Source: a virus (taxonomy: Duplodnaviria > Caudoviricetes). From it: a stretch of DNA of 64,000 nucleotides. The translations under genes and the position numbers were made by a program. The notes beneath the pieces were generated by a model. The model was not told where the DNA came from, did not search any database, and saw only the letters and a list, made by a program, of their open reading frames with translations. Numbering within the stretch: the first letter of the stretch is position 1; every line of letters begins with the position of its first letter. The DNA lies in the IMG/VR virus record IMGVR_UViG_3300026442_000101. One strand, 5' to 3'. Positions 30,406 to 47,266 of this stretch are shown piece by piece.

Positions 30406-30933
30406 TCAGTTGACCCGAAGGATCACTTGATCACGACCACCGCGTTGAGCCAGCCATTCGTAGAACTGCGTATACTTCATATTGCAGAAGAAGTAACTGG
30501 CATCGTCGACGATGATGAGCTTTGCTGGGGGAATAGGATCGGGCAGACCTTTCTTCCGATGCAGGATCGAGCGCTTTACTTCGTATGGCGTACACACACG
30601 AACGCTTTCTAATTCTGCACGGGGATACCCGATGAAATCAGGGTTCTCGTTCGCACAGTTCTGGATCAGCATCTTCTTGATCCTGAGGTTCGGTACGATG
30701 TAGAGCGCCTCACCTACCAGGTTGAAGATCTGAGCCAAAGCTCTGGTACGGCCGGTCTGACGTGGGACGAAGAACCCCACAGTCTTCCAGTCACGCAACC
30801 AGATGTCGTCTGGAGGAGCTGCCCTTCTGTACTGTTCCTCGAACCACTCCTGTTCGGCGTGGAATGGCGCCAGCAGGCTCTGTACCATCTCCTTCGGATT
30901 GAAGGGAGGTTGTGAGACCGTTTTCTTACTCAT
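30406..30933 (-). CDS. small P-loop NTPase-like protein
   Basis: PRQTGRT Walker A-like and IIVDDA Walker B-like. Confidence 0.6.
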   Translation of the reverse strand: MSKKTVSQPPFNPKEMVQSLLAPFHAEQEWFEEQYRRAAPPDDIWLRDWKTVGFFVPRQTGRTRALAQIFNLVGEALYIVPNLRIKKMLIQNCANENPDFIGYPRAELESVRVCTPYEVKRSILHRKKGLPDPIPPAKLIIVDDASYFFCNMKYTQFYEWLAQRGGRDQVILRVN

Positions 30934-31349
30934 CTTGTAATCTCGCCTTTATATTCAAACGGTAAGTTCGCCTTCTCAGCGATCTTCCGTAAAACGTTTA
31001 TGCTTAAGTGTCGGTGACAGAACTTACCGGGACTACAATAGCACGCAATGGCCACCTCACTGTCTCGTCCCAATTCGAGCAGATCGTAGAAAGACCGACG
31101 CCAACTACCGTACCGATCGCGTAATAGCGCTAGGTATTGTTCGGTATACATCTCGTCGGTTATGAGCTCGCCCTTGTGGTTCATGACCATCGTCCAAGTG
31201 GGTGCGAGAAACTCGTACTCCACAGCTGACTTTACCGTGGTATCGGCCAGGATGATTCCCCTATCCTGCACCAGTCTCCACTGGCTAATCTGCGCTGTCC
31301 AAAAGGCCATGCTAAGCTCCGGTATTCTCTGACATACATTTGCCAGCAT
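30930..31349 (-). CDS. DUF488-like protein
   Basis: ACYCSPGKFCHRHL motif. Confidence 0.6.
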   Translation of the reverse strand: MLANVCQRIPELSMAFWTAQISQWRLVQDRGIILADTTVKSAVEYEFLAPTWTMVMNHKGELITDEMYTEQYLALLRDRYGSWRRSFYDLLELGRDSEVAIACYCSPGKFCHRHLSINVLRKIAEKANLPFEYKGEITR

Positions 31350-31397: not shown

Positions 31398-31530
31398 TAG
31401 GCCCCGAGCGGGAGATTTGAACTCCCCACCAACTAATAAACGACGGACACGGGAAAGTGCGTCAGGCATGAAACCCTTTCCAGTATATCGTATCGCAGTT
31501 CGCCGGAGTAGCGCCAGCCGCTAGCCAGGG
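31398..31530 (-). ncRNA. tRNA-scaffold RNA NC1 (133 nt): acceptor, D-like hairpin, long insert, T arm, G-CCTA end
   Basis: Acceptor CCCTGGC/GCTCGGG; T arm GGGAG-TTCAAAT-CTCCC. Confidence 0.55.
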
Positions 31531-31948: not shown

Positions 31949-31963
31949 TGCACTCTCTCCTAA

Positions 31964-32115
31964 TAGGTCTCCAACATACCCAGTGTATCGCCTATTGTAT
32001 TGTTGAGCGGTCGCAGTTAGGATTTCGGGTCGTACCTAAATTTTCCCCATTGCTGGGCGATGTCCTGATGTAGCGTTTTGGACGATTGCGACACTTTAGC
32101 GATACCACGTTGGAA
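31964..32115 (-). ncRNA. structured RNA NC7 (152 nt) closed by an acceptor-like stem, ending A-CCTA
   Basis: TTCCAACGT/ATGTTGGAG, GTATCGC/GCGATAC, GTCGCA/TGCGAC, CCCA-GCAA-TGGG, TTAGG/CCTAA. Confidence 0.55.
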
Positions 32116-32117
32116 AA

Positions 32118-32245
32118 TAGGTCTCCACCCGTGTTTTCGAGACACGGACCTCACTCATGTACCTGATCCACGCCGAACCCCGAAGGGATGGGCATGTTCG
32201 GAATCGAACCGAAAGAGTGCGCTCTACCATCTGAGCTAGGCGGAG
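32118..32245 (-). ncRNA. tRNA-scaffold RNA NC2 (128 nt) with permuted mini-tRNA in the anticodon arm
   Basis: Acceptor CTCCGCC/GGTGGAG, D arm, stem CACTC/GAGTG around 58-nt insert holding a second T arm. Confidence 0.7.
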
Positions 32246-32252
32246 ATAAAAC

Positions 32253-32978
32253 TTACGCGCAGCGGTAGTTCGGGTTCTCGAGAACAACCTCGAGGTCGAA
32301 GAACAGCTCGGTCTTGATGCTGGACGGCACGGTGATGGAAAGCAAGGCGCGCTCAGGATCTACCTTCAGGTAGATGTCTTCAGCACCAGGGATGCTGAGG
32401 GTGTAGTTCTGAGTACGCTGACCTTCGATCTGCTTGATAGCAGAGAGGTCATGGGACAGCTTGATACCATCGGCCGTGCGGACGTTGTTGAAGCGGATAG
32501 CGCCGACGCTGTCGGTCAGATCCAACACGCTGGGATCGCCGAAGCCGAACACGTTGAACTTACCATCGACCAACGGCAGGTTCTTGGCTTCGAGGCGACG
32601 CTCGGTAGCGCGGCCAATGCGACGACGCAGGACAGTGGAGTACTTGTCCATGAACGCGCCTTGCTGCATCATCATGTCTACATCGAGATCGGAAAGACCT
32701 TCAGGCTTGGCGCCCTGACCCACGTTGTAGAGGAACGAGCACAGACCTTTGTGACGCGCGGTCAGTTGCGCTTGCTCGATAATCATGCGCTGGACATGCG
32801 CCGGGCGGCTGTCGATGTGACCGAGCGGCAAGTGATCTTTCAGGAACTGCTCTTCCGATTGCCAGGTTACGTTGCCGGCTTCGTCTTTGACGTTGTAGCC
32901 AGGCTTACCATCTTCGCCGGATTGAGACGACCAGGCGAGGACAGTAACGTTCTTGTTCACCAGATAGTTCTGAGTCAT
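32253..32978 (-). CDS. multidomain hypothetical protein with crAss001_48-like helical hairpin
   Basis: QRMIIEQAQLTARHKGLCSFL...QQGAFMDKYSTVLRRRI pattern. Confidence 0.7.
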   Translation of the reverse strand: MTQNYLVNKNVTVLAWSSQSGEDGKPGYNVKDEAGNVTWQSEEQFLKDHLPLGHIDSRPAHVQRMIIEQAQLTARHKGLCSFLYNVGQGAKPEGLSDLDVDMMMQQGAFMDKYSTVLRRRIGRATERRLEAKNLPLVDGKFNVFGFGDPSVLDLTDSVGAIRFNNVRTADGIKLSHDLSAIKQIEGQRTQNYTLSIPGAEDIYLKVDPERALLSITVPSSIKTELFFDLEVVLENPNYRCA

Positions 32979-33006
32979 GAAAGATCTCTGCGGGTGGTTG
33001 GATGAA

Positions 33007-33095
33007 TAGGGCGTTCCTCGTGGATTTGAACCACGGACCTTCGGCGTGTCTTTTAGCTAAGGGGCCGACGCTCTAACCAGCTGAGCTAAGGAACG
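33007..33095 (-). ncRNA. tRNA-scaffold RNA NC3 (89 nt) with 18-nt anticodon loop
   Basis: All four tRNA stems perfect; loop CCCTTAGCTAAAAGACAC; ends C-CCTA. Confidence 0.75.
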
Positions 33096-33099
33096 AGAA

Positions 33100-33213
33100 T
33101 AGGGGCTTCCTCGAAGAATCGAACTTCGGACTTCCGCCAGGTATGGTGAGCCTGCCCCATTTAAGGGGCCAGGAGGCTCGAAGACGGCACTCTACCAACT
33201 GAGTTAAGGAAGC
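33100..33213 (-). ncRNA. tRNA-scaffold RNA NC4 (114 nt) with 44-nt hairpin insert replacing the anticodon loop
   Basis: GCTTCCT/AGGAAGC, CCGTC/GGCGG, CGAAG-TTCGATT-CTTCG; ends C-CCTA. Confidence 0.75.
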
Positions 33214-33220
33214 ATGTAGC

Positions 33221-33496
33221 TTAAAGCAAACCTTCCGAGATCATGAACTGTTCGAGGTCATCAAAGAAACCATCGTACAGGATTTCGGTACCGGCAAAAC
33301 CTTTCCAGCGCCACCACTTAGGTTCTTTACCCATAGCGGTGATGCTTTCTTCGGTTTGCTTTCTGAAGAAATTACCGACCTTATCGAACGCAACGAGGTC
33401 GGTGGTGTAGAGATCCCCGTGGACGTGCAGCAGCCTGATTATCTTGGCTTCCAGTTCTGGACTAACCTCGAGTTCTTTCAGTTGCTTATTGCGCAT
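33221..33496 (-). CDS. hypothetical protein, 91 aa (start reassigned to MRNK)
   Basis: The longer start overlaps the NC5 RNA. Confidence 0.7.
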   Translation of the reverse strand: MRNKQLKELEVSPELEAKIIRLLHVHGDLYTTDLVAFDKVGNFFRKQTEESITAMGKEPKWWRWKGFAGTEILYDGFFDDLEQFMISEGLL

Positions 33497-33512
33497 CACA
33501 AGTTTCTCTGAA

Positions 33513-33664
33513 TAGGGAGCACTGACTGGAATTGAACCAGTGACCTTCGTCAAGTTGGCCTTACGCTCTAACCAACTGAGCTAATCACCCATACGGGCGA
33601 TGCCGGACTCGAACCGGCGACCTTAAGGGAGGGACGACGCTCTACCAAACTGAGCTACAGTGCT
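33513..33664 (-). ncRNA. nested double tRNA NC5 (152 nt): outer tRNA containing a complete circularly permuted tRNA
   Basis: Outer AGCACTG/CAGTGCT and TCGTC/GACGA; inner GGGTGAT/ATCGCCC and TAAGG/CCTTA; two D arms, two T arms; ends C-CCTA. Confidence 0.85.
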
Positions 33665-33670
33665 ATTGAA

Positions 33671-33821
33671 TAGGTAACTCTAGCAGGGAATCGAACCCGC
33701 TGCCTTCCTCATGTTTGCGTCTACCAATTCCGCCATTGGCCGATAGTGCCGGCCAAGCAGGACTCGAACCTGCAATCCTTTTCAGGAAGGTGAGGACGCT
33801 CTACCAATGAGCTACAGAGTT
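33671..33821 (-). ncRNA. nested double tRNA NC6 (151 nt): outer tRNA containing a permuted Leu-type tRNA lacking its anticodon arm
   Basis: Outer AACTCTG/TAGAGTT and TCCTC/GAGGA; inner CGGCCAA/TTGGCCG, D arm TGGCGGAATTGGTAGACGC; ends A-CCTA. Confidence 0.8.
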
Positions 33822-33823
33822 AG

Positions 33824-34122
33824 AATAAGCGCCTGGGGAGGACATTCCCCAGGTCTTGCCACTAATTACCCTAGTGGCCAAGGTGCCTTCATATCGCTTC
33901 AGGCAGGTTTGCGCGGTACTAGCTAGTGTCTGACCATGCTAGAACAGTGCTCGGCATGTGCGGCGCTGGCGCTTCCCTGATAACTCAAAGCCAACAGACT
34001 GGCTCCTCGTCGTCGTAGGGTCTAATGTAACTACAAAGCCTTACGTGCAGCTATAGCGCCTCGGGTAGGGAGGGCACGGGGCTAGGATCTTAGGCTTGGC
34101 ATAGGAGTACCGAGCTTCTGAT
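33824..34122 (-). ncRNA. candidate ~300-nt structured ncRNA
   Basis: No credible ORF; hairpins GCCACTAG/TTAGTGGC, CCTGGGG/CCCCAGG; flanked by tRNA-Gln and NC6. Confidence 0.4.
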
Positions 34123-34123
34123 T

Positions 34124-34201
34124 TGGCAGGGGTAATTGGATTCGAACCAATGATCGCGGCGTCAAAGGCCGCTGCTTTAGGCCAGGCTAAGCTATACCCC
34201 G
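34124..34201 (-). tRNA. trnQ: tRNA-Gln(UUG)
   Basis: GCGGC-CTTTGAC-GCCGC anticodon arm, TTCGAAT T loop, encoded CCA. Confidence 0.9.
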
Positions 34202-34209
34202 ATTGAAAA

Positions 34210-34285
34210 TGGCTCCACGACCTGGACTCGAACCAGGGACAGGCGAATTAACAGTCCGCTACTCTACCGACTGAGTTATCGTGGA
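34210..34285 (-). tRNA. trnN: tRNA-Asn(GUU)
   Basis: GCGGA-CTGTTAA-TTCGC, acceptor TCCACGA/TCGTGGA, CCA. Confidence 0.92.
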
Positions 34286-34361
34286 ACAAAGGGTGACCCT
34301 CCAGCCGATCTACGGCTAGTTAAGCGCGCTGCGTAATACGCTGCCTGGCAAGGGTCGTAAA

Positions 34362-34445
34362 TGGTGGATGGGGAAGGATTCGAACCTTCGAAAAATTAAT
34401 GGCGGCTTTACAGGCCGCTCCCTTTGACCTCTCGTGAACTCATCC
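34362..34445 (-). tRNA. trnY: tRNA-Tyr(GUA)
   Basis: GCGGC-CTGTAAA-GCCGC, long variable arm, CCA. Confidence 0.9.
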
Positions 34446-34454
34446 AGATGCAAG

Positions 34455-34530
34455 TGGTAGTACCGAGTGGGATGGAACCACCGACCTTATCCTTATCAGG
34501 GGTGCGCTCTACCAGCTGAGCTACGGCACT
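34455..34530 (-). tRNA. trnI: tRNA-Ile(GAU), possibly degenerate
   Basis: CTGATAA loop, CCA; anticodon stem CACCC/GGATA has 2 mismatches and T loop is TTCCATC. Confidence 0.7.
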
Positions 34531-44317: not shown

Positions 44318-46381
44318 TTACGCGACTTTCGAATTGCCGTGCAGTTCGAACCACCGGTCAGTAGTTTCGGTGATGTGCTGATCGACCTTCGCACAGATGT
44401 CGGTGTGGTTAGGATCAACCACGAAACCGCCATCCATGAAGATCGGTTTCAGCAGACCAGACTTGACGTGGATCTCGGCGATCTTCATATCTTGCTCTTG
44501 GTTGAGCACGATACCTTCATCGCTGTCGATCAGCGCCAGCAGGCCTTTGGCCGACTTCTTCAGACCGTCACCGGTGGCTGGGTCTTTGTACAGCTCGACC
44601 ATCTCACCATTGACCATGGTCGCGGTAGCCTTAACGGCAATGCCGAAGGTATCGCGAGTCAGGTAGTTGTAGGTGTAGGAGCCGACGCCGAACACGACGT
44701 TGCACGATGCGAAACCTTTGATCGCCAGACGACGGCAGATTTCTTCAGCGCGGTGTACGGTGATGGAATCGCCGTAGATCAGGCCGATGCGTTCGTGCAG
44801 AACTTTGTAGCCGCGTTCGGTTTCGGTACCGCCGAAGGTTTCCCACAGCAGCTCGATGGCACCCTTCTCTTGCGCCGACAGCTCGACCTGTTCGATCTTG
44901 TAGCCGTTGCGGTAAGTGCCCTTACCCATGACCATGACTTCGACACCGCGCAGCTCGAGCAGGTCATGCAGCTCACGATACGCTTTGAAGCGGACCGGGT
45001 CGGTGCAATCGGCGCTGATCGGGAACGGGTAGTCGAACAGGGCGGCGGAGCCCATCACGTCGGTCATCAGTTCGTCGTAGTAGCTGTGATCAACCGCAGG
45101 CAGATCGGCCTTGACCTGACTGATGGTGCGGGAGATCGCTTTACCGGCGATACTGGTGGCTTTGTGAATCTTGCCTTCCGGATCTTTGAAGTAGACGAAC
45201 TCCGGCTTGTAGTTCACCATCTGAGCTTCGGCAGCAAGCTGGTCCAGGATTTCCACGCCGCAGATGATTTCTACAGGATCGCCCGAGTCAGGACGGATGA
45301 CCAGCTTGGCCATGCCGTTCTCGTCAGGCAGACGAGCCAGGATCTCTTCCTTCAGCGAAGGCAGGACCGAGGTCAGTACGCCAAAGAAGTCGAAGCTGTC
45401 GCACACCAGGCCCAGCATGCCGGTCTTGAACTTGACGGTCAACATTTCCTTGATGAAGCCACGCTCTGCTTCCAGGCGCATGCCTTTCAGTTCAGAGAGC
45501 AGCTCTTCTTCGGTAGCGCCTTCGGCTCGACGAGCCTTGACCATCTGACGCAGCCGACTCAGGATGTTCGCGGTTGCCACCGAGTGCTCAGTCGCAGGAA
45601 TGGTACCTGCGATCATCACCTTCTCGGCATCGCCGTTGTACATCTGCTCGATGTAGTCGATGGCCGGCATGGTATCACTGCCGGTGAACACGCGCAGGTG
45701 AGCCGCGCCGCAACGAGCGCCATCTTCCATACCCGACATGCCACGGTACGAGAAGTCGTGAGCCTGGAACTTGACGAAGTCGGTAGGCACGCCGGTGATC
45801 TTGGCCCACTTGGTCAGGACGCGACGGTACTCGAACGCAATGGTGCCGACGGTAACCTGTTTCCAGGTCATGTTCGACATGATGGTTTCGAGGAACTCGG
45901 CCAGCCAGAAGAACTCGGAGCCTTCATCGATGACATTACCGTTGCTGTCGTAGATGACGTACATAGGCACGCCAATCGGCAGACGGGTACCTTCTTCCAC
46001 GCCCAGGATACGCAGCGGCAGGTGACCGATATCGTGCAGGTTGGCAAGGGACTTGGCCGATACCTTGTCTTTGCCGATGTAGGTGTCGCAGCGGCGCTTG
46101 AACTTGTAGAGCACGTCGGACTTCGGCTTGCTGAAGAAGCTCTCTTCCCACATGCTGACGATTTCATGCAGCGCGGCTACGTGACCGGTGACCAGGATCT
46201 TACGGTCCCACATCGAACTACAACTCGGCGATCGAGCGAAGATCTTGTCGCTACGCGCGGTGCTGTTGGCGTAGAGGAACGACGAACCGTCGGGATACAT
46301 CGGACCATGGCCTTGTTTGTAGCCATCGGTACCGGTAGGGCCGAACATCTTGAAAGCTTTGAACAGTTTCTTGAGAGACAT
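44318..46381 (-). CDS. nadV: nicotinamide phosphoribosyltransferase-like (NAMPT/Namat) with insertions
   Basis: TDGYKQGH, HDFSYRG, IPATEHS, IRPDSGDP, LIYGDSIT, KKSAKG. Confidence 0.95.
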   Translation of the reverse strand: MSLKKLFKAFKMFGPTGTDGYKQGHGPMYPDGSSFLYANSTARSDKIFARSPSCSSMWDRKILVTGHVAALHEIVSMWEESFFSKPKSDVLYKFKRRCDTYIGKDKVSAKSLANLHDIGHLPLRILGVEEGTRLPIGVPMYVIYDSNGNVIDEGSEFFWLAEFLETIMSNMTWKQVTVGTIAFEYRRVLTKWAKITGVPTDFVKFQAHDFSYRGMSGMEDGARCGAAHLRVFTGSDTMPAIDYIEQMYNGDAEKVMIAGTIPATEHSVATANILSRLRQMVKARRAEGATEEELLSELKGMRLEAERGFIKEMLTVKFKTGMLGLVCDSFDFFGVLTSVLPSLKEEILARLPDENGMAKLVIRPDSGDPVEIICGVEILDQLAAEAQMVNYKPEFVYFKDPEGKIHKATSIAGKAISRTISQVKADLPAVDHSYYDELMTDVMGSAALFDYPFPISADCTDPVRFKAYRELHDLLELRGVEVMVMGKGTYRNGYKIEQVELSAQEKGAIELLWETFGGTETERGYKVLHERIGLIYGDSITVHRAEEICRRLAIKGFASCNVVFGVGSYTYNYLTRDTFGIAVKATATMVNGEMVELYKDPATGDGLKKSAKGLLALIDSDEGIVLNQEQDMKIAEIHVKSGLLKPIFMDGGFVVDPNHTDICAKVDQHITETTDRWFELHGNSKVA

Positions 46382-46408
46382 GTTACGTCCTTGCTTGCGG
46401 GTGGGTGT

Positions 46409-47266
46409 TTAAACTTCGAGCCAGTGGTAGCCTTCGCGCACTTCGCCGTCAGGGCAGAGCGGGCCACGTCCTTTACCGTGGAACGAGTTGGTGCTGTAGA
46501 TCGCATCGAAATACTTCGGCATTTCGTCGTAGCCGTGGCTGAAGATGCCGTGGGTTACGAACAGCGACATGTACTTAGCGCCTTTCTCACGCAGCTTCTT
46601 GGAAAGCTCCATGAAGGTACGGCCGCCATCACAGATGTCGTCGAAGATGATGACATTCTTGCCATCAACATCACCGTAGATCTCGGTGTGGGAGATCTTG
46701 CCGGTAGCTGGGTCACGGTGCTTACTGGCCACGATGACTTCAGACGCCTTGAGCTCTTTGGCGTACTGGTAGGTCTTCTTGAGCGCACCGGCATCAGGAG
46801 CGATCAACACCAGACCTTCGGGCAGGTGGAGCTTACCGATGTACTCCAGGGCGCTGACGTTGACACAGTTGTTGATACCGGTCATGGCGCCTTCGGAGTG
46901 AGCGTCCACGATGGTCACGGTTTCCGCATTGATCGAATTGATCATCTGCCCAACCACTGCCAGCGACAGAGCCTCGCCTTCGTTGCAGACGCGGTCCTGA
47001 CGAGCGTACGGCAGGTACGGGATGAACAGACGTACTGCACAGCCCGGCCAGCGGCGACGCACAGCGTCAGCGGTGAGCATGAGACCGATCAGCAGGTCGG
47101 AGCTGCTGAGGTGGGCTACGATGGTCACGTCAGGACGGATCATCGGTGCATCGCATGGATCGAGTTTGACATCGATCTCACCGCCCGGGAACTTGCCAAT
47201 CTTGACAGCGATGTCGCGGGACATTACGCCAGTGGCGAAGTTCATGGTGGCAATTACTTTGATCAT
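46409..47266 (-). CDS. prs: ribose-phosphate pyrophosphokinase-like (PRPS/Adps)
   Basis: FPGGE, PYLPYARQDR, APDAGA, DDICDGGRTF, THGIFS. Confidence 0.95.
   Translation of the reverse strand: MIKVIATMNFATGVMSRDIAVKIGKFPGGEIDVKLDPCDAPMIRPDVTIVAHLSSSDLLIGLMLTADAVRRRWPGCAVRLFIPYLPYARQDRVCNEGEALSLAVVGQMINSINAETVTIVDAHSEGAMTGINNCVNVSALEYIGKLHLPEGLVLIAPDAGALKKTYQYAKELKASEVIVASKHRDPATGKISHTEIYGDVDGKNVIIFDDICDGGRTFMELSKKLREKGAKYMSLFVTHGIFSHGYDEMPKYFDAIYSTNSFHGKGRGPLCPDGEVREGYHWLEV

What the first reader, a model, noticed from the sequence alone, without database searches (positions are those of the whole stretch)
33007..33095. Perfect tRNA body with an 18-nt anticodon loop containing the palindrome TTAGCTAA
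All stems are Watson-Crick perfect, but the loop is CCCTTAGCTAAAAGACAC (11 nt too long). It contains a self-complementary octamer that could mediate loop-loop dimerisation. GCCCCTTA is shared with the insert of the adjacent NC4. Removal of 11 nt would restore a normal tRNA, so a tiny intron is an alternative explanation.
Basis: partly seen in the sequence, partly recalled or inferred. Interest (0 to 1): 0.65.

Follow-up and report, generated by a model that had tools for sequence, protein, structure and literature searches.

The report
Valine-type phage tRNA look-alike
This is a real, conserved tRNA-shaped RNA gene of an uncultured soil jumbo phage whose anticodon loop is split by a small hairpin, so it almost certainly cannot read codons, yet it keeps the two bases that valyl-tRNA synthetase recognises; it is the smallest member of a family of phage tRNA mimics that I found in no paper or RNA library searched.

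Summary
Window 33095-33011 (minus strand) is a tRNA body with 21 Watson-Crick pairs, all elbow nucleotides and an 18-nt anticodon loop. It is not a private pseudogene: four sequence variants in related phage contigs keep an 18- or 21-nt loop, with compensatory changes in the acceptor stem and in a 3-4 bp mini-stem inside the loop. The octamer palindrome is not conserved; only AGCU in the apical hexaloop is invariant. The motif shared with NC4 is also not conserved. No excision yields U33, and there is no bulge-helix-bulge, so a known type of intron is unsupported.

The loop reads C32 C33 + an 11-nt hairpin insert + G34 A35 C36 A37 C38. In the same register, all six sibling groups that have an anticodon stem and a CCU end carry N-A-C in every phage examined. 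Position 73 is always A or C. These are the valine identity marks seen in plant-virus TLS-Val.

My best reading is a non-decoding, valine-type tRNA mimic that engages host ValRS. Its purpose is unknown, and expression could not be shown. One relative lacks the gene. The scan has noted valine-type look-alikes before, both for siblings in this genome and in unrelated phages.

The parts
33011..33095 (-). tRNA-shaped body of the target, from C1 to discriminator C73 (85 nt)
   Evidence: Rfam RF00005 54.7 bits. 21 of 21 Watson-Crick pairs. Covariation across 4 variants.
33046..33063 (-). 18-nt 'anticodon loop' CCCUUAGCUAAAAGACAC, read as C32 C33 + insert + G34 A35 C36 A37 C38
   Evidence: The same layout is found in L001, L003 and L124 (21 nt there).
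33050..33061 (-). Mini-hairpin: CUU/AAG stem with hexaloop AGCUAA (33058-33053). Its last base, G at 33050, doubles as position 34.
   Evidence: RNAfold predicts it in all three folded orthologues and in L124. Pair U-A <-> G-C changes on both sides. AGCU is invariant.
33053..33060 (-).
   Evidence: Present in the window. It is not conserved as an octamer in relatives.
33046..33050 (-). G34 A35 C36 A37 C38: a valine anticodon with its 3' neighbours, stacked on the 3' strand of the anticodon stem
   Evidence: Register check against the canonical tRNAs of the same loci. GAC is kept in all four variants.
33004..33010 (-). 3' trailer CCUAUUC in place of CCA
   Evidence: Conserved in all orthologues, including L124. 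Six minus-strand CCTATT copies lie at 31962-33674, each directly after an acceptor-like stem.
33104..33213 (-). Sibling NC4: a tRNA body with a 44-nt loop holding a covarying hairpin. Positions 34-38 read UACCU.
   Evidence: Rfam tRNA 48 bits. Alignment. Register table.
33513..33664 (-). Sibling B-C: a double-bodied tRNA-in-tRNA. Positions 34-38 of the outer body read AACUU.
33671..33821 (-). Sibling D: a double-bodied element. Positions 34-38 read AACAU.
32118..32245 (-). Sibling downstream of the Sequestin-domain gene. Positions 34-38 read UACAU, with A73-CCU.
34124..34530 (-). Canonical tRNAs with encoded CCA (Ile, Tyr, Asn, Gln) at the head of the same RNA island
32253..32978 (-). Gene starting 30 nt downstream of the target: a 241-aa protein with a PF21825 (Sequestin) domain
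   Evidence: Pfam E = 1.9e-12. The family is named Sequestin. It is an anti-Thoeris 3'cADPR sponge family.

Best explanation
The element is a stable, non-decoding tRNA mimic of valine type. It is the smallest paralogue of a family carried in the tRNA island of a phiKZ-like soil jumbo phage lineage.

Shown:
- It has a complete L-shape-competent tRNA body.
- Its anticodon stem ends in an asymmetric internal loop (5' CC, 3' ACAC or ACUU) that carries a conserved, covarying mini-hairpin with hexaloop AGCU(A/U)A.
- The five bases just 5' of the 3' strand of the stem read G-A-C-N-N. That is a valine anticodon in the exact 34-38 register.
- The 3' end is N73(C or A)-CCU-AUUC.

Inferred:
- The transcript is cut out of the polycistronic RNA by host RNase P and 3' trimming.
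- It is trimmed back to N-CC and completed to CCA by the host CCA-adding enzyme.
- It is bound, and possibly charged, by host valyl-tRNA synthetase through A35, C36, the elbow and the acceptor end.
- The hairpin at the 33/34 turn keeps it off the ribosomal decoding site.

It would then work like the valine-accepting tRNA-like structures of plant viruses. The downstream purpose is not known; candidates are ValRS or EF-Tu engagement, or protection from a tRNA-directed host response.
For: - Fold: Rfam tRNA 54.7 bits. All 24 pairs are kept in 4 distinct orthologues. Three acceptor pairs and one mini-stem pair change on both sides; slid controls pair at 35-52%.
- Not private: the expanded loop is present in L001/L002, L003/L125 and L124. 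In L124 the flanking protein is only 51% identical, yet the 3' strand of the anticodon stem, the variable loop, the T stem and the hexaloop AGCUAA are unchanged.
- Non-decoding: none of the 8 possible excisions in any orthologue gives U33. Position 37 would be U in three of the four variants.
- Valine marks: GAC sits at 34-36 in all four variants.
- The same register gives N-A-C in all six sibling groups with an anticodon stem, in every locus examined. NC4 has UAC, GAC or AAC. B-C has AAC or CAC. D has AAC. The 32245 element has UAC. E' has AAC or CAC. Positions 34, 37 and 38 vary freely.
- Control: the CCA-ended tRNAs of the same loci give their true anticodons in that register.
- N73 is A or C in every member.
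- A35 and C36 are the major valine determinants. TLS-Val elements have conserved A35CAC38, N73 of A or C, and tolerate large inserted stem-loops (PMC9976931). The window copy reads A35 C36 A37 C38.
- G45 and a regular acceptor helix without G-U pairs, which are minor valine elements, are present.
- Context: the same-strand neighbours include a Sequestin-domain protein and NAD-salvage genes, so this is a counter-defence neighbourhood.
Against: - Expression, processing and 3' end are not shown. The RNA-labelled soil runs hold the whole phage at uniform depth on contigs longer than 200 kb, so they say nothing about this RNA.
- A35 and C36 are known determinants within a 7-nt loop. Whether ValRS accepts them beside a hairpin at 33/34 is untested.
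- G20, a minor determinant, is U here.
- C73, rather than the A73 universal in cellular tRNA-Val, is found in the window clade.
- CCA is not encoded, and completion from CCU is an inference.
- The host is unknown.
- The gene is absent from one relative (L123), so it is dispensable or redundant.
- Two other CCUA-ended elements of the island (31530-31398 and 32115-31964) lack this arm and the NAC.
- A35-C36 could be kept for a partner other than ValRS.
Confidence: 0.45

Rival explanations
1. It is a decoy for a host defence that attacks tRNA-Val. The mimic shows the 35-36 recognition bases and the tRNA body to an anticodon nuclease or another tRNA-directed toxin. The hairpin sits exactly at the 33/34 turn, where some anticodon nucleases cut, so the mimic would bind without being consumed.
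For: - A35-C36 is invariant while position 34 and the 5' half of the loop are free.
- In every sibling the insert replaces the 5' side of the loop.
- The island lies among counter-defence genes: a Sequestin-domain protein, NAPRTase and PRPP synthetase.
- Jumbo phages are known to answer tRNA cleavage with their own tRNAs and repair enzymes (PMC7824862).
- The canonical tRNAs beside it (Tyr, Asn, His, Asp, Gln, Ile) are of the kind phages supply against anticodon nucleases (the link to nucleases rests on my own knowledge).
Against: - I know of no anticodon nuclease specific for tRNA-Val, and the literature searches found none.
- This phage lineage carries no normal tRNA-Val that would replace a cleaved host species.
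- No binding data exist.
Confidence: 0.2
2. It is a true tRNA-Val(GAC) gene interrupted by an 11-nt (14-nt in L124) mini-intron between positions 33 and 34. The insert is removed by an unknown phage or host cut-and-ligate activity, and the siblings are Val isoacceptors with longer inserts.
For: - Excising the hairpin leaves 7 nt, CCGACAC or CCGACUU, in all variants.
- The siblings together cover GAC, UAC, AAC and CAC.
- No normal tRNA-Val is encoded in the island.
- Insert length varies at one site, as introns do.
Against: - Position 33 would be C, and position 37 would be U or C in most members.
- There is no bulge-helix-bulge.
- It is far too short for a group I intron.
- In the double-bodied siblings the two strands of the junction hold only 11 nt, too few for two 7-nt loops.
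- No splicing endonuclease, RtcB or RNA ligase was found among the 38 ORFs scanned.
- No contig lacking the 11 nt was seen in 4 runs; contigs cannot prove absence.
Confidence: 0.08
3. It acts in cis. The tRNA-like fold is a processing or punctuation signal that defines and stabilises the 5' end of the Sequestin-domain mRNA starting 30 nt downstream. The loop content would then be incidental.
For: - A tRNA-like element followed by CCCUAUUCAUCC...GCAGAGAUCUUUC-AUG sits directly before the gene in every relative.
- In L123 it is NC4 that occupies this place, with the same trailer.
- No sigma-70-type promoter lies inside the island, so the RNAs and the gene are probably co-transcribed.
Against: - A processing signal would not need the covarying mini-hairpin, the invariant AGCU or A35-C36.
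- Siblings with the same features lie far from any start codon.
- More distant Sequestin homologues have no tRNA-like element upstream.
Confidence: 0.07
4. It is a loop-loop dimerising RNA. The self-complementary loop pairs two copies, or pairs this RNA with another RNA carrying AGCU.
For: - AGCU in the hexaloop is invariant in four variants.
- The window and L124 have longer palindromes of 8 and 12 nt.
- Computed duplex energy for the hexaloops is -2.7 to -3.9 kcal/mol.
Against: - The palindrome shrinks to 6 nt in L003 and 4 nt in L001/L002.
- A 4-bp kissing contact is weak.
- The computed gain of the strand-swapped dimer is generic to any hairpin.
- An 8-nt palindrome arises in 1.4% of shuffles.
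- Conservation of the loop fits a protein contact equally well.
Confidence: 0.05
5. It is a decaying tRNA pseudogene with an accidental insertion.
For: - It is absent from one relative.
- It has no encoded CCA.
Against: - It is kept across phages whose flanking protein has diverged to 51% identity, with compensatory changes and a 33-nt stretch unchanged.
- The insert itself covaries.
Confidence: 0.03

Closest known systems
Valine-accepting tRNA-like structures (TLS-Val) of tymoviruses such as TYMV
   Same: A viral RNA that is not a decoder but shows valine identity: A35 and C36 (A35CAC38 in TLS-Val; ACAC in the window copy), a discriminator of A or C, a 3' end that needs the host CCA enzyme, and tolerance of inserted stem-loops (PMC9976931).
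   Different: TLS-Val is the 3' end of an RNA genome, builds its acceptor arm with a pseudoknot and keeps a 7-nt anticodon loop. Here there is a free-standing small RNA gene of a DNA phage, a normal 7-bp acceptor stem and a loop split by a hairpin. No Rfam TLS family matched. Valylation is untested.
YrlA-type Y RNAs of bacteria and phages (Rfam RF02553; PMC4201824)
   Same: Non-coding tRNA mimics with D-arm and T-arm elbow features that are handled by tRNA enzymes. They also occur in phages. Weak YrlA hits fall on the double-bodied siblings.
   Different: YrlA is permuted, carries a Ro60-binding stem and lies within 4 kb of an rsr gene. The target is a normally ordered cloverleaf. Its best YrlA hit is 25 bits against a gathering score of 69, and that hit spans two genes. 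No TROVE protein was found among the scanned ORFs.
Phage T4 stable RNAs rnaC and rnaD (species 1 and 2 RNAs)
   Same: Small stable RNAs of 139 and 119 nt encoded at the end of a phage tRNA cluster. rnaC has an acceptor-plus-T-arm 3' domain and an off-size 6-nt loop. To my knowledge their function is still unknown.
   Different: There is no sequence relation. The rnaC loop reads CGUCAA (GUC, not NAC). It scores only 17.5 bits on a tRNA-type model, and the body is not a full cloverleaf.
Intron-containing tRNAs (archaeal/eukaryal bulge-helix-bulge type; bacterial group I type)
   Same: Extra nucleotides within the anticodon loop of an otherwise normal tRNA gene. ARAGORN in intron mode parses the target as Lys(CUU) with an 11-nt intron.
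   Different: There is no bulge-helix-bulge. The 37/38 parse gives different anticodons in orthologues. No excision restores U33. It is 20-fold too short for a group I intron.
tRNA-like small RNAs cut out by tRNA enzymes (mascRNA; gammaherpesvirus 68 TMER tRNA-like parts)
   Same: tRNA-shaped, uncharged or non-decoding RNAs matured by RNase P, RNase Z and the CCA enzyme. This comparison rests on my own knowledge and on PMC9976931.
   Different: Those are eukaryotic or animal-virus RNAs without a conserved aminoacylation identity. No homology was detected.

Membership tests
tRNA (Rfam RF00005), structural membership | Cloverleaf with 7/4/5/5-bp stems and the elbow nucleotides (U8, A14, G18G19, G53-C61, T-loop UUCRANY) | tested here: met
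   54.7 bits against a gathering score of 29. 21 of 21 Watson-Crick pairs. Nucleotide table.
tRNA, functional decoder | 7-nt anticodon loop with U33 and a purine at 37 | tested here: not met
   The loop is 18 nt (21 in L124). No excision gives U33 in any orthologue.
tRNA, functional decoder | 3' CCA, either encoded like the neighbouring phage tRNAs or demonstrably added | tested here: inconclusive
   The gene encodes N73-CCU-AUUC, while Ile, Tyr, Asn and Gln encode CCA. Completion to CCA is possible but untested.
Intron-containing tRNA, bulge-helix-bulge type | Two 3-nt bulges on opposite strands separated by a 4-bp helix at the exon-intron junctions | tested here: not met
   The predicted arm is a 5-bp stem, a 2 x 4 nt internal loop, a 3-bp stem and a hexaloop.
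Intron-containing tRNA, bulge-helix-bulge type | Splicing gives one consistent, canonical anticodon loop across orthologues | tested here: not met
   The 37/38 parse gives CUU, CGU or UUU. The 33/34 parse gives GAC, but with C33 and U37.
Intron-containing tRNA, group I type | Self-splicing intron of about 200 nt or more with a P1-P9 core | tested here: not met
   The insert is 11-14 nt. No group I intron hit appeared in the Rfam scan at E <= 1.
YrlA / Y RNA (RF02553) | Score at or above the family threshold, with permuted T-acceptor-D order and a Ro60-binding stem | tested here: not met
   The best overlapping hit is 25 bits against a gathering score of 69, and it spans NC4 and the target. The gene order is that of a normal tRNA.
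YrlA / Y RNA (RF02553) | A Ro60 (TROVE) gene within about 4 kb on the same strand | tested here: not met
   No TROVE domain in the 38 ORFs scanned, including all the flanking ones. The rest of the >240-kb genome could not be read.
Valine-identity tRNA mimic (works like TLS-Val) | A35 and C36 in register with the 3' strand of the anticodon stem | tested here: met
   GAC in all four orthologue variants. NAC in all six sibling groups. Identity rules from PMC9976931.
Valine-identity tRNA mimic (works like TLS-Val) | Discriminator A73 (tRNA-Val), or A/C73 (TLS-Val) | tested here: met
   C73 in the window clade and A73 in L124. Every sibling has A or C.
Valine-identity tRNA mimic (works like TLS-Val) | Binding and valylation by ValRS | not testable with these tools
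   This needs an aminoacylation or binding assay.
TLS-Val of plant viruses (membership) | Pseudoknotted acceptor arm at the 3' end of a viral RNA genome, with a 7-nt anticodon loop | tested here: not met
   The target has an ordinary 7-bp acceptor stem, lies internally in a DNA phage transcript and has an 18-nt loop. No Rfam TLS hit.
CCU-ended tRNA-like family of this phage lineage | Acceptor-like stem + N73 + CCUA(UU) trailer, in the same-strand RNA island | tested here: met
   Six minus-strand CCTATT copies lie at 31962-33674, each after an acceptor-like stem. The window-wide count is at chance level, so it is the clustering and placement that are specific.

The most novel reading that the evidence does not exclude
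DNA phages have evolved their own counterpart of the plant-virus TLS-Val. This would be a family of free-standing small RNAs that keep only the tRNA body plus the valine determinants A35-C36. They present these to host valyl-tRNA synthetase, and may be valylated after CCA completion, while variable grafts at the 33/34 turn keep them out of decoding. Earlier scan notes report valine-type look-alikes in unrelated phages, so this may be a recurrent and so far undescribed way for phages to act on the host translation or tRNA-surveillance machinery.
Probability: 0.35. Interest if true: 0.8.

Novelty: new variant of a known kind. Interest (0 to 1): 0.62.

Why it matters
tRNA mimicry with a defined amino-acid identity is a classic of plant RNA viruses, but I found no description of it for bacteriophages in the literature searched.

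This 85-nt element is the simplest member of a family that otherwise includes tRNA-in-tRNA constructs. That makes it the most practical substrate for asking directly whether ValRS binds or charges these RNAs, and what the phage gains.

If ValRS engagement is confirmed, it would reveal a new layer of phage-host conflict at the level of aminoacyl-tRNA synthetases or tRNA surveillance. It would also give a natural example of a tRNA scaffold that tolerates grafts at the anticodon turn. If it is refuted, the strict A35-C36 conservation still marks a specific unknown partner worth finding.

Tried and rejected
- Expression and splicing from public runs: 21 RNA-labelled soil runs hold the stretch. In the three RNA runs laid, the whole phage is present at uniform, very high depth on long contigs, as in the DNA run, so nothing can be said about transcription. 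No contig lacks the 11 nt. One Illumina adapter junction at 33013 in a single run (X17) is not usable as an RNA end.
- Isolated phages (INPHARED): blastn found no homologue, only generic tRNA matches. The best was a Gordonia phage tRNA-Ile at 75%.
- E. coli genomes: no informative match.
- Search for a cellular ancestor: the 18-mer GCCGAAGGTCCGTGGTTC occurs in 16 of 185,579 species genomes, and all 16 matches fall outside any tRNA gene (ARAGORN calls none there). BLAST against five soil genomes matched only the D arm that many tRNA types share.
- IMG/VR: only three related contigs. A scan for 'T arm + 11 nt + CCTATT' returned 118 loci that are mostly ordinary tRNAs or chance matches, with no further family members.
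- Ro60, RtcB, RNA ligase, splicing endonuclease and CCA enzyme: none found among the 38 ORFs scanned with Pfam, 8 of them also with PHROGs. The rest of the genome is not held.
- k-turn or bulge-helix-bulge reading of the internal loop: rejected by inspection.
- Dimer modelling with RNAcofold: the gain is generic to hairpins and not informative.
- T4 rnaC/rnaD as a possible Val-type relative: rejected. The rnaC loop reads GUC and the RNA is not a full cloverleaf.
- Pairing of the loop with the ~285-nt RNA upstream: its UAGCUA is not conserved in L001.
Full report
**What is there**

On the minus strand, window 33095-33011 folds as a complete tRNA.
- Acceptor stem CGUUCCU/AGGAACG, D stem GCUC/GAGC, anticodon stem UCGGC/GCCGA and T stem CGUGG/CCACG give 21 Watson-Crick pairs out of 21.
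- U8, A14, G18G19, G15-C48, G53-C61 and a UUCAAAU T loop are in place.
- Rfam's tRNA model scores it at 54.7 bits against a gathering score of 29.
- ARAGORN calls a tRNA with an undefined anticodon.
- The loop is CCCUUAGCUAAAAGACAC (33063-33046), 18 nt.
- The gene does not encode CCA. Discriminator C (33011) is followed by CCU-AUUC.

**Setting**

The window is phage DNA, and no whole genome is held for it. An identical copy of the flanking protein occurs on a 248-kb contig. Earlier scan notes call it a phiKZ-like soil jumbo phage; I did not test this.

The target is the last RNA of a same-strand RNA island. In order, the island holds:
- four ordinary tRNAs that encode CCA (Ile, Tyr, Asn, Gln; 34530-34124);
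- an ORF-free ~285-nt stretch;
- two double-bodied tRNA-in-tRNA elements;
- a 91-codon ORF;
- NC4, a tRNA body with a 44-nt loop;
- the target.

Thirty nucleotides further on begins a 241-aa protein with a PF21825 domain. Newer Pfam names this domain Sequestin. The family comprises anti-Thoeris sponges for 3'cADPR (bioRxiv 10.1101/2025.07.12.664507).

More CCU-ended elements follow that gene. Genes nearby include NAPRTase, PRPP synthetase, DHFR, thymidylate synthase and thymidylate kinase. No sigma-70-type promoter lies inside the island.

**Is it a private accident?**

No. I found orthologues through the flanking protein:
- three IMG/VR contigs (L001, L002, L003; 67-76% protein identity);
- a Logan contig (L125, 68%);
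- an ENA contig (L124, 51%).

There are four distinct sequence variants. Their loops read:

| Source | Loop | Length |
|---|---|---|
| window | CC-CUU-AGCUAA-AAG-ACAC | 18 nt |
| L001/L002 | CC-CGU-AGCUUA-ACG-ACUU | 18 nt |
| L003/L125 | CC-CGU-AGCUAA-ACG-ACUU | 18 nt |
| L124 | CC-UUUU-AGCUAA-AAAA-GACUU | 21 nt |

On the alignment, all 24 pairs of the proposed structure are standard pairs in all four variants. Three acceptor pairs and one pair of the mini-stem inside the loop change on both sides. Sliding the 3' partners drops pairing to 35-52%.

In L124 the acceptor stem has become CUCUCUU/AAGAGAG and the discriminator is A. Yet the 3' strand of the anticodon stem, the variable loop, the T stem and the hexaloop are unchanged.

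One relative lacks the gene cleanly. In L123 (61% protein identity), NC4 is followed directly by the CCCUAUUCAUCC trailer and the start codon. L124 in turn lacks NC4. Single members are therefore dispensable or redundant.

**The palindrome and the NC4 motif**

- An 8-nt palindrome appears in 1.4% of shuffles of this loop.
- Across orthologues the longest palindrome is 8, 4, 6 and 12 nt. Only AGCU is invariant.
- What all variants conserve is the other register: a 3-4 bp mini-stem closing the hexaloop AGCU(A/U)A. RNAfold also predicts this.
- A kissing contact through AGCU is weak, at -2.7 to -3.9 kcal/mol. The computed advantage of a strand-swapped dimer is generic to hairpins.
- Dimerisation is not excluded, but conservation does not single it out.
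- The GGCCCCUUA shared with NC4 exists only in the window. In relatives the target has CCCGUA and NC4 has UCCCUUA.

**The intron idea**

- ARAGORN in intron mode parses the target as Lys(CUU) with an 11-nt intron at 37/38.
- The same parse gives CGU in the close relatives and UUU in L124.
- I enumerated every excision that leaves 7 nt. None gives U33 in any orthologue, and most give U37.
- The arm has no bulge-helix-bulge.
- The insert is far too short for a group I intron.
- No splicing endonuclease, RtcB or RNA ligase was found among the 38 ORFs scanned.
- No contig lacking the 11 nt appeared in four runs, although contigs cannot show absence.

**What the loop actually contains**

The same enumeration showed that cutting out just the hairpin leaves CC+GACAC in the window and CC+GACUU in all relatives. 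The five bases directly 5' of the 3' strand of the anticodon stem are G-A-C-N-N, a valine anticodon in the exact 34-38 register.

A note from an earlier agent on a sibling element had mentioned a valine type, so I tested the whole family. A script anchored on the T arm, the variable loop and the 3' strand of the anticodon stem returned the true anticodons for every CCA-ended tRNA in the loci (GAU, GUU, GUC, CAU and so on). For every CCU-ended element that has an anticodon stem, it returned N-A-C-N-N:

| Element | Positions 34-38 |
|---|---|
| target | GACAC / GACUU |
| NC4 | UACCU / GACCU / AACCU |
| B-C | AACUU / CACUU / AACUC |
| D | AACAU / AACGU / AACGA |
| 32245-32118 element | UACAU / UACAA |
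| E' (extra element, relatives only) | AACGU / CACCC |

- Positions 34, 37 and 38 vary among paralogues and orthologues. A35 and C36 never do.
- N73 is always A or C.
- Two further CCUA-ended elements (31530-31398 and 32115-31964) have no such arm and no NAC. The rule therefore covers six of eight element types.

**Why A35-C36 matters**

- A35 and C36 are the major identity determinants for valyl-tRNA synthetase.
- In the valine-accepting tRNA-like structures of plant viruses, A35CAC38 is fully conserved and the discriminator is A or C.
- Large inserted stem-loops do not prevent valylation of those structures (Giege and Eriani 2023, PMC9976931).
- The window copy reads A35 C36 A37 C38.
- G45 and a regular acceptor helix, both minor elements, are present. 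G20 is not.
- From my own knowledge, TYMV RNA also ends in CC and needs the host CCA enzyme, and RNase T stalls at a 3' CC. The CCU-AUUC trailer is therefore compatible with maturation to CCA rather than being a block.

**Best explanation and its limits**

The target is a non-decoding tRNA mimic of valine type.
- Shown: the fold, the conserved and covarying hairpin at the 33/34 turn, the valine marks and the family trailer.
- Inferred: excision by host tRNA-processing enzymes, completion to CCA, and binding or charging by host ValRS.
- Unknown: the purpose.

Nothing here shows expression, the host is unknown, and ValRS tolerance of a graft beside the anticodon is untested.

The main rival is a decoy for a tRNA-Val-directed nuclease or toxin. 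It uses the same evidence but a different partner. I rank it lower only because no such nuclease is known to me or was found in the searches. The other rivals are a spliced tRNA-Val, a cis-acting processing signal for the Sequestin-domain mRNA, a dimerising RNA and a pseudogene. Each has specific evidence against it, listed under the rival explanations.

**Comparison with known systems**

- It works most like TLS-Val but is not a member. It has no pseudoknotted acceptor, is not a genome 3' end and has no 7-nt loop.
- It is not a YrlA. The best hit is 25 bits against a gathering score of 69, the gene order is normal, and no Ro60 gene was found nearby.
- The nearest phage precedent is the pair of stable RNAs rnaC and rnaD at the end of the T4 tRNA cluster. 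To my knowledge their function is still unknown. rnaC has an acceptor-plus-T-arm domain but a GUC-containing 6-nt loop, and there is no sequence relation.
- Literature searches found no phage tRNA mimic with a defined amino-acid identity.

**Earlier scan notes**

Notes on this genome already describe the family and its 3' end code, and call two siblings valine-type. Notes on other genomes describe valine-type look-alikes in a salt-lake phage and a peat phage.

I re-derived and tested the valine register for the target and all siblings here. I did not check the other genomes.

**Verdict**

The element is a new variant of a known kind, a viral tRNA mimic. It is the simplest member of its family and a good experimental handle on it.

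Noticed in passing
window 33832-34115 (minus); L001:2890-3195; L123:215-485: An ORF-free ~285-nt stretch lies between the last canonical tRNA and the mimics. It is well conserved in relatives and ends in a strong hairpin plus GCUUAUUC, which resembles the family trailer. No Rfam family matched at E <= 1.
   Followed up: no
L123:1057-1205: The target gene is cleanly absent in this relative. NC4 is followed directly by CCCTATTCATCC and the start codon of the Sequestin-domain gene, as if lost or gained by recombination between the repeated CCCTATTC trailers. L124 in turn lacks NC4.
   Followed up: partly
L001:3285-3420; L003:52-185; L123:577-710; L124:616-760: Relatives carry a further family member that is absent from the window. 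It is a tRNA body with a ~65-75-nt insert in the anticodon loop, AAC or CAC at 34-36 and a C/A73-CCUA end.
   Followed up: partly
window 33221-33496 (minus): A 91-codon ORF with no Pfam or PHROG match sits inside the RNA island between the double-bodied element and NC4. It is present only in the window; relatives have just a short spacer there.
   Followed up: no
window 32253-32978 (minus): The protein just downstream carries a Sequestin (PF21825) domain at residues 59-122 but is 241 aa long. That is much longer than the <100-aa sponges described for the family, so it may be a fusion or a divergent form.
   Followed up: partly
window 44318-47266 (minus): An NAPRTase-family protein (687 aa) sits next to a PRPP synthetase-like protein. 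This is an NAD-salvage pair of the kind jumbo phages use against NAD depletion.
   Followed up: no
window 30930-31349 (minus); L123:2603-2983: A DUF488-N3a domain protein is conserved downstream of the RNA island in relatives. Its function is unknown.
   Followed up: no
L089:4190-4270: An unrelated IMG/VR phage contig has a 72-nt tRNA-like gene whose anticodon arm is a CCGGA/UCCGG stem capped by a GCGA tetraloop, followed by C-CCUAUU. It is a different kind of anticodon-less tRNA look-alike.
   Followed up: no
L020, L057, L073, L082, L104 (about 70 nt before each CCTATT match): Several unrelated viral contigs share a 72-nt tRNA-like gene with an 8-nt anticodon loop, which ARAGORN reads as a 4-base anticodon GUAG. 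In the one copy I read (L020) it has weak acceptor pairs and lies next to a tRNA-Thr.
   Followed up: no
window 31398-31530 (minus) vs L123:2332-2511: The last tRNA-like element of the island ends in G-CCU in the window but in G-CCA in L123. The CCU/CCA split between mimics and tRNAs is therefore not absolute across relatives.
   Followed up: no
runs X11, X16, X17: Libraries labelled as soil metatranscriptomes hold this phage at several-thousand-fold depth on contigs longer than 200 kb, with even cover over genes and spacers. They appear to contain much phage DNA, or the phage was extraordinarily abundant in those samples.
   Followed up: no
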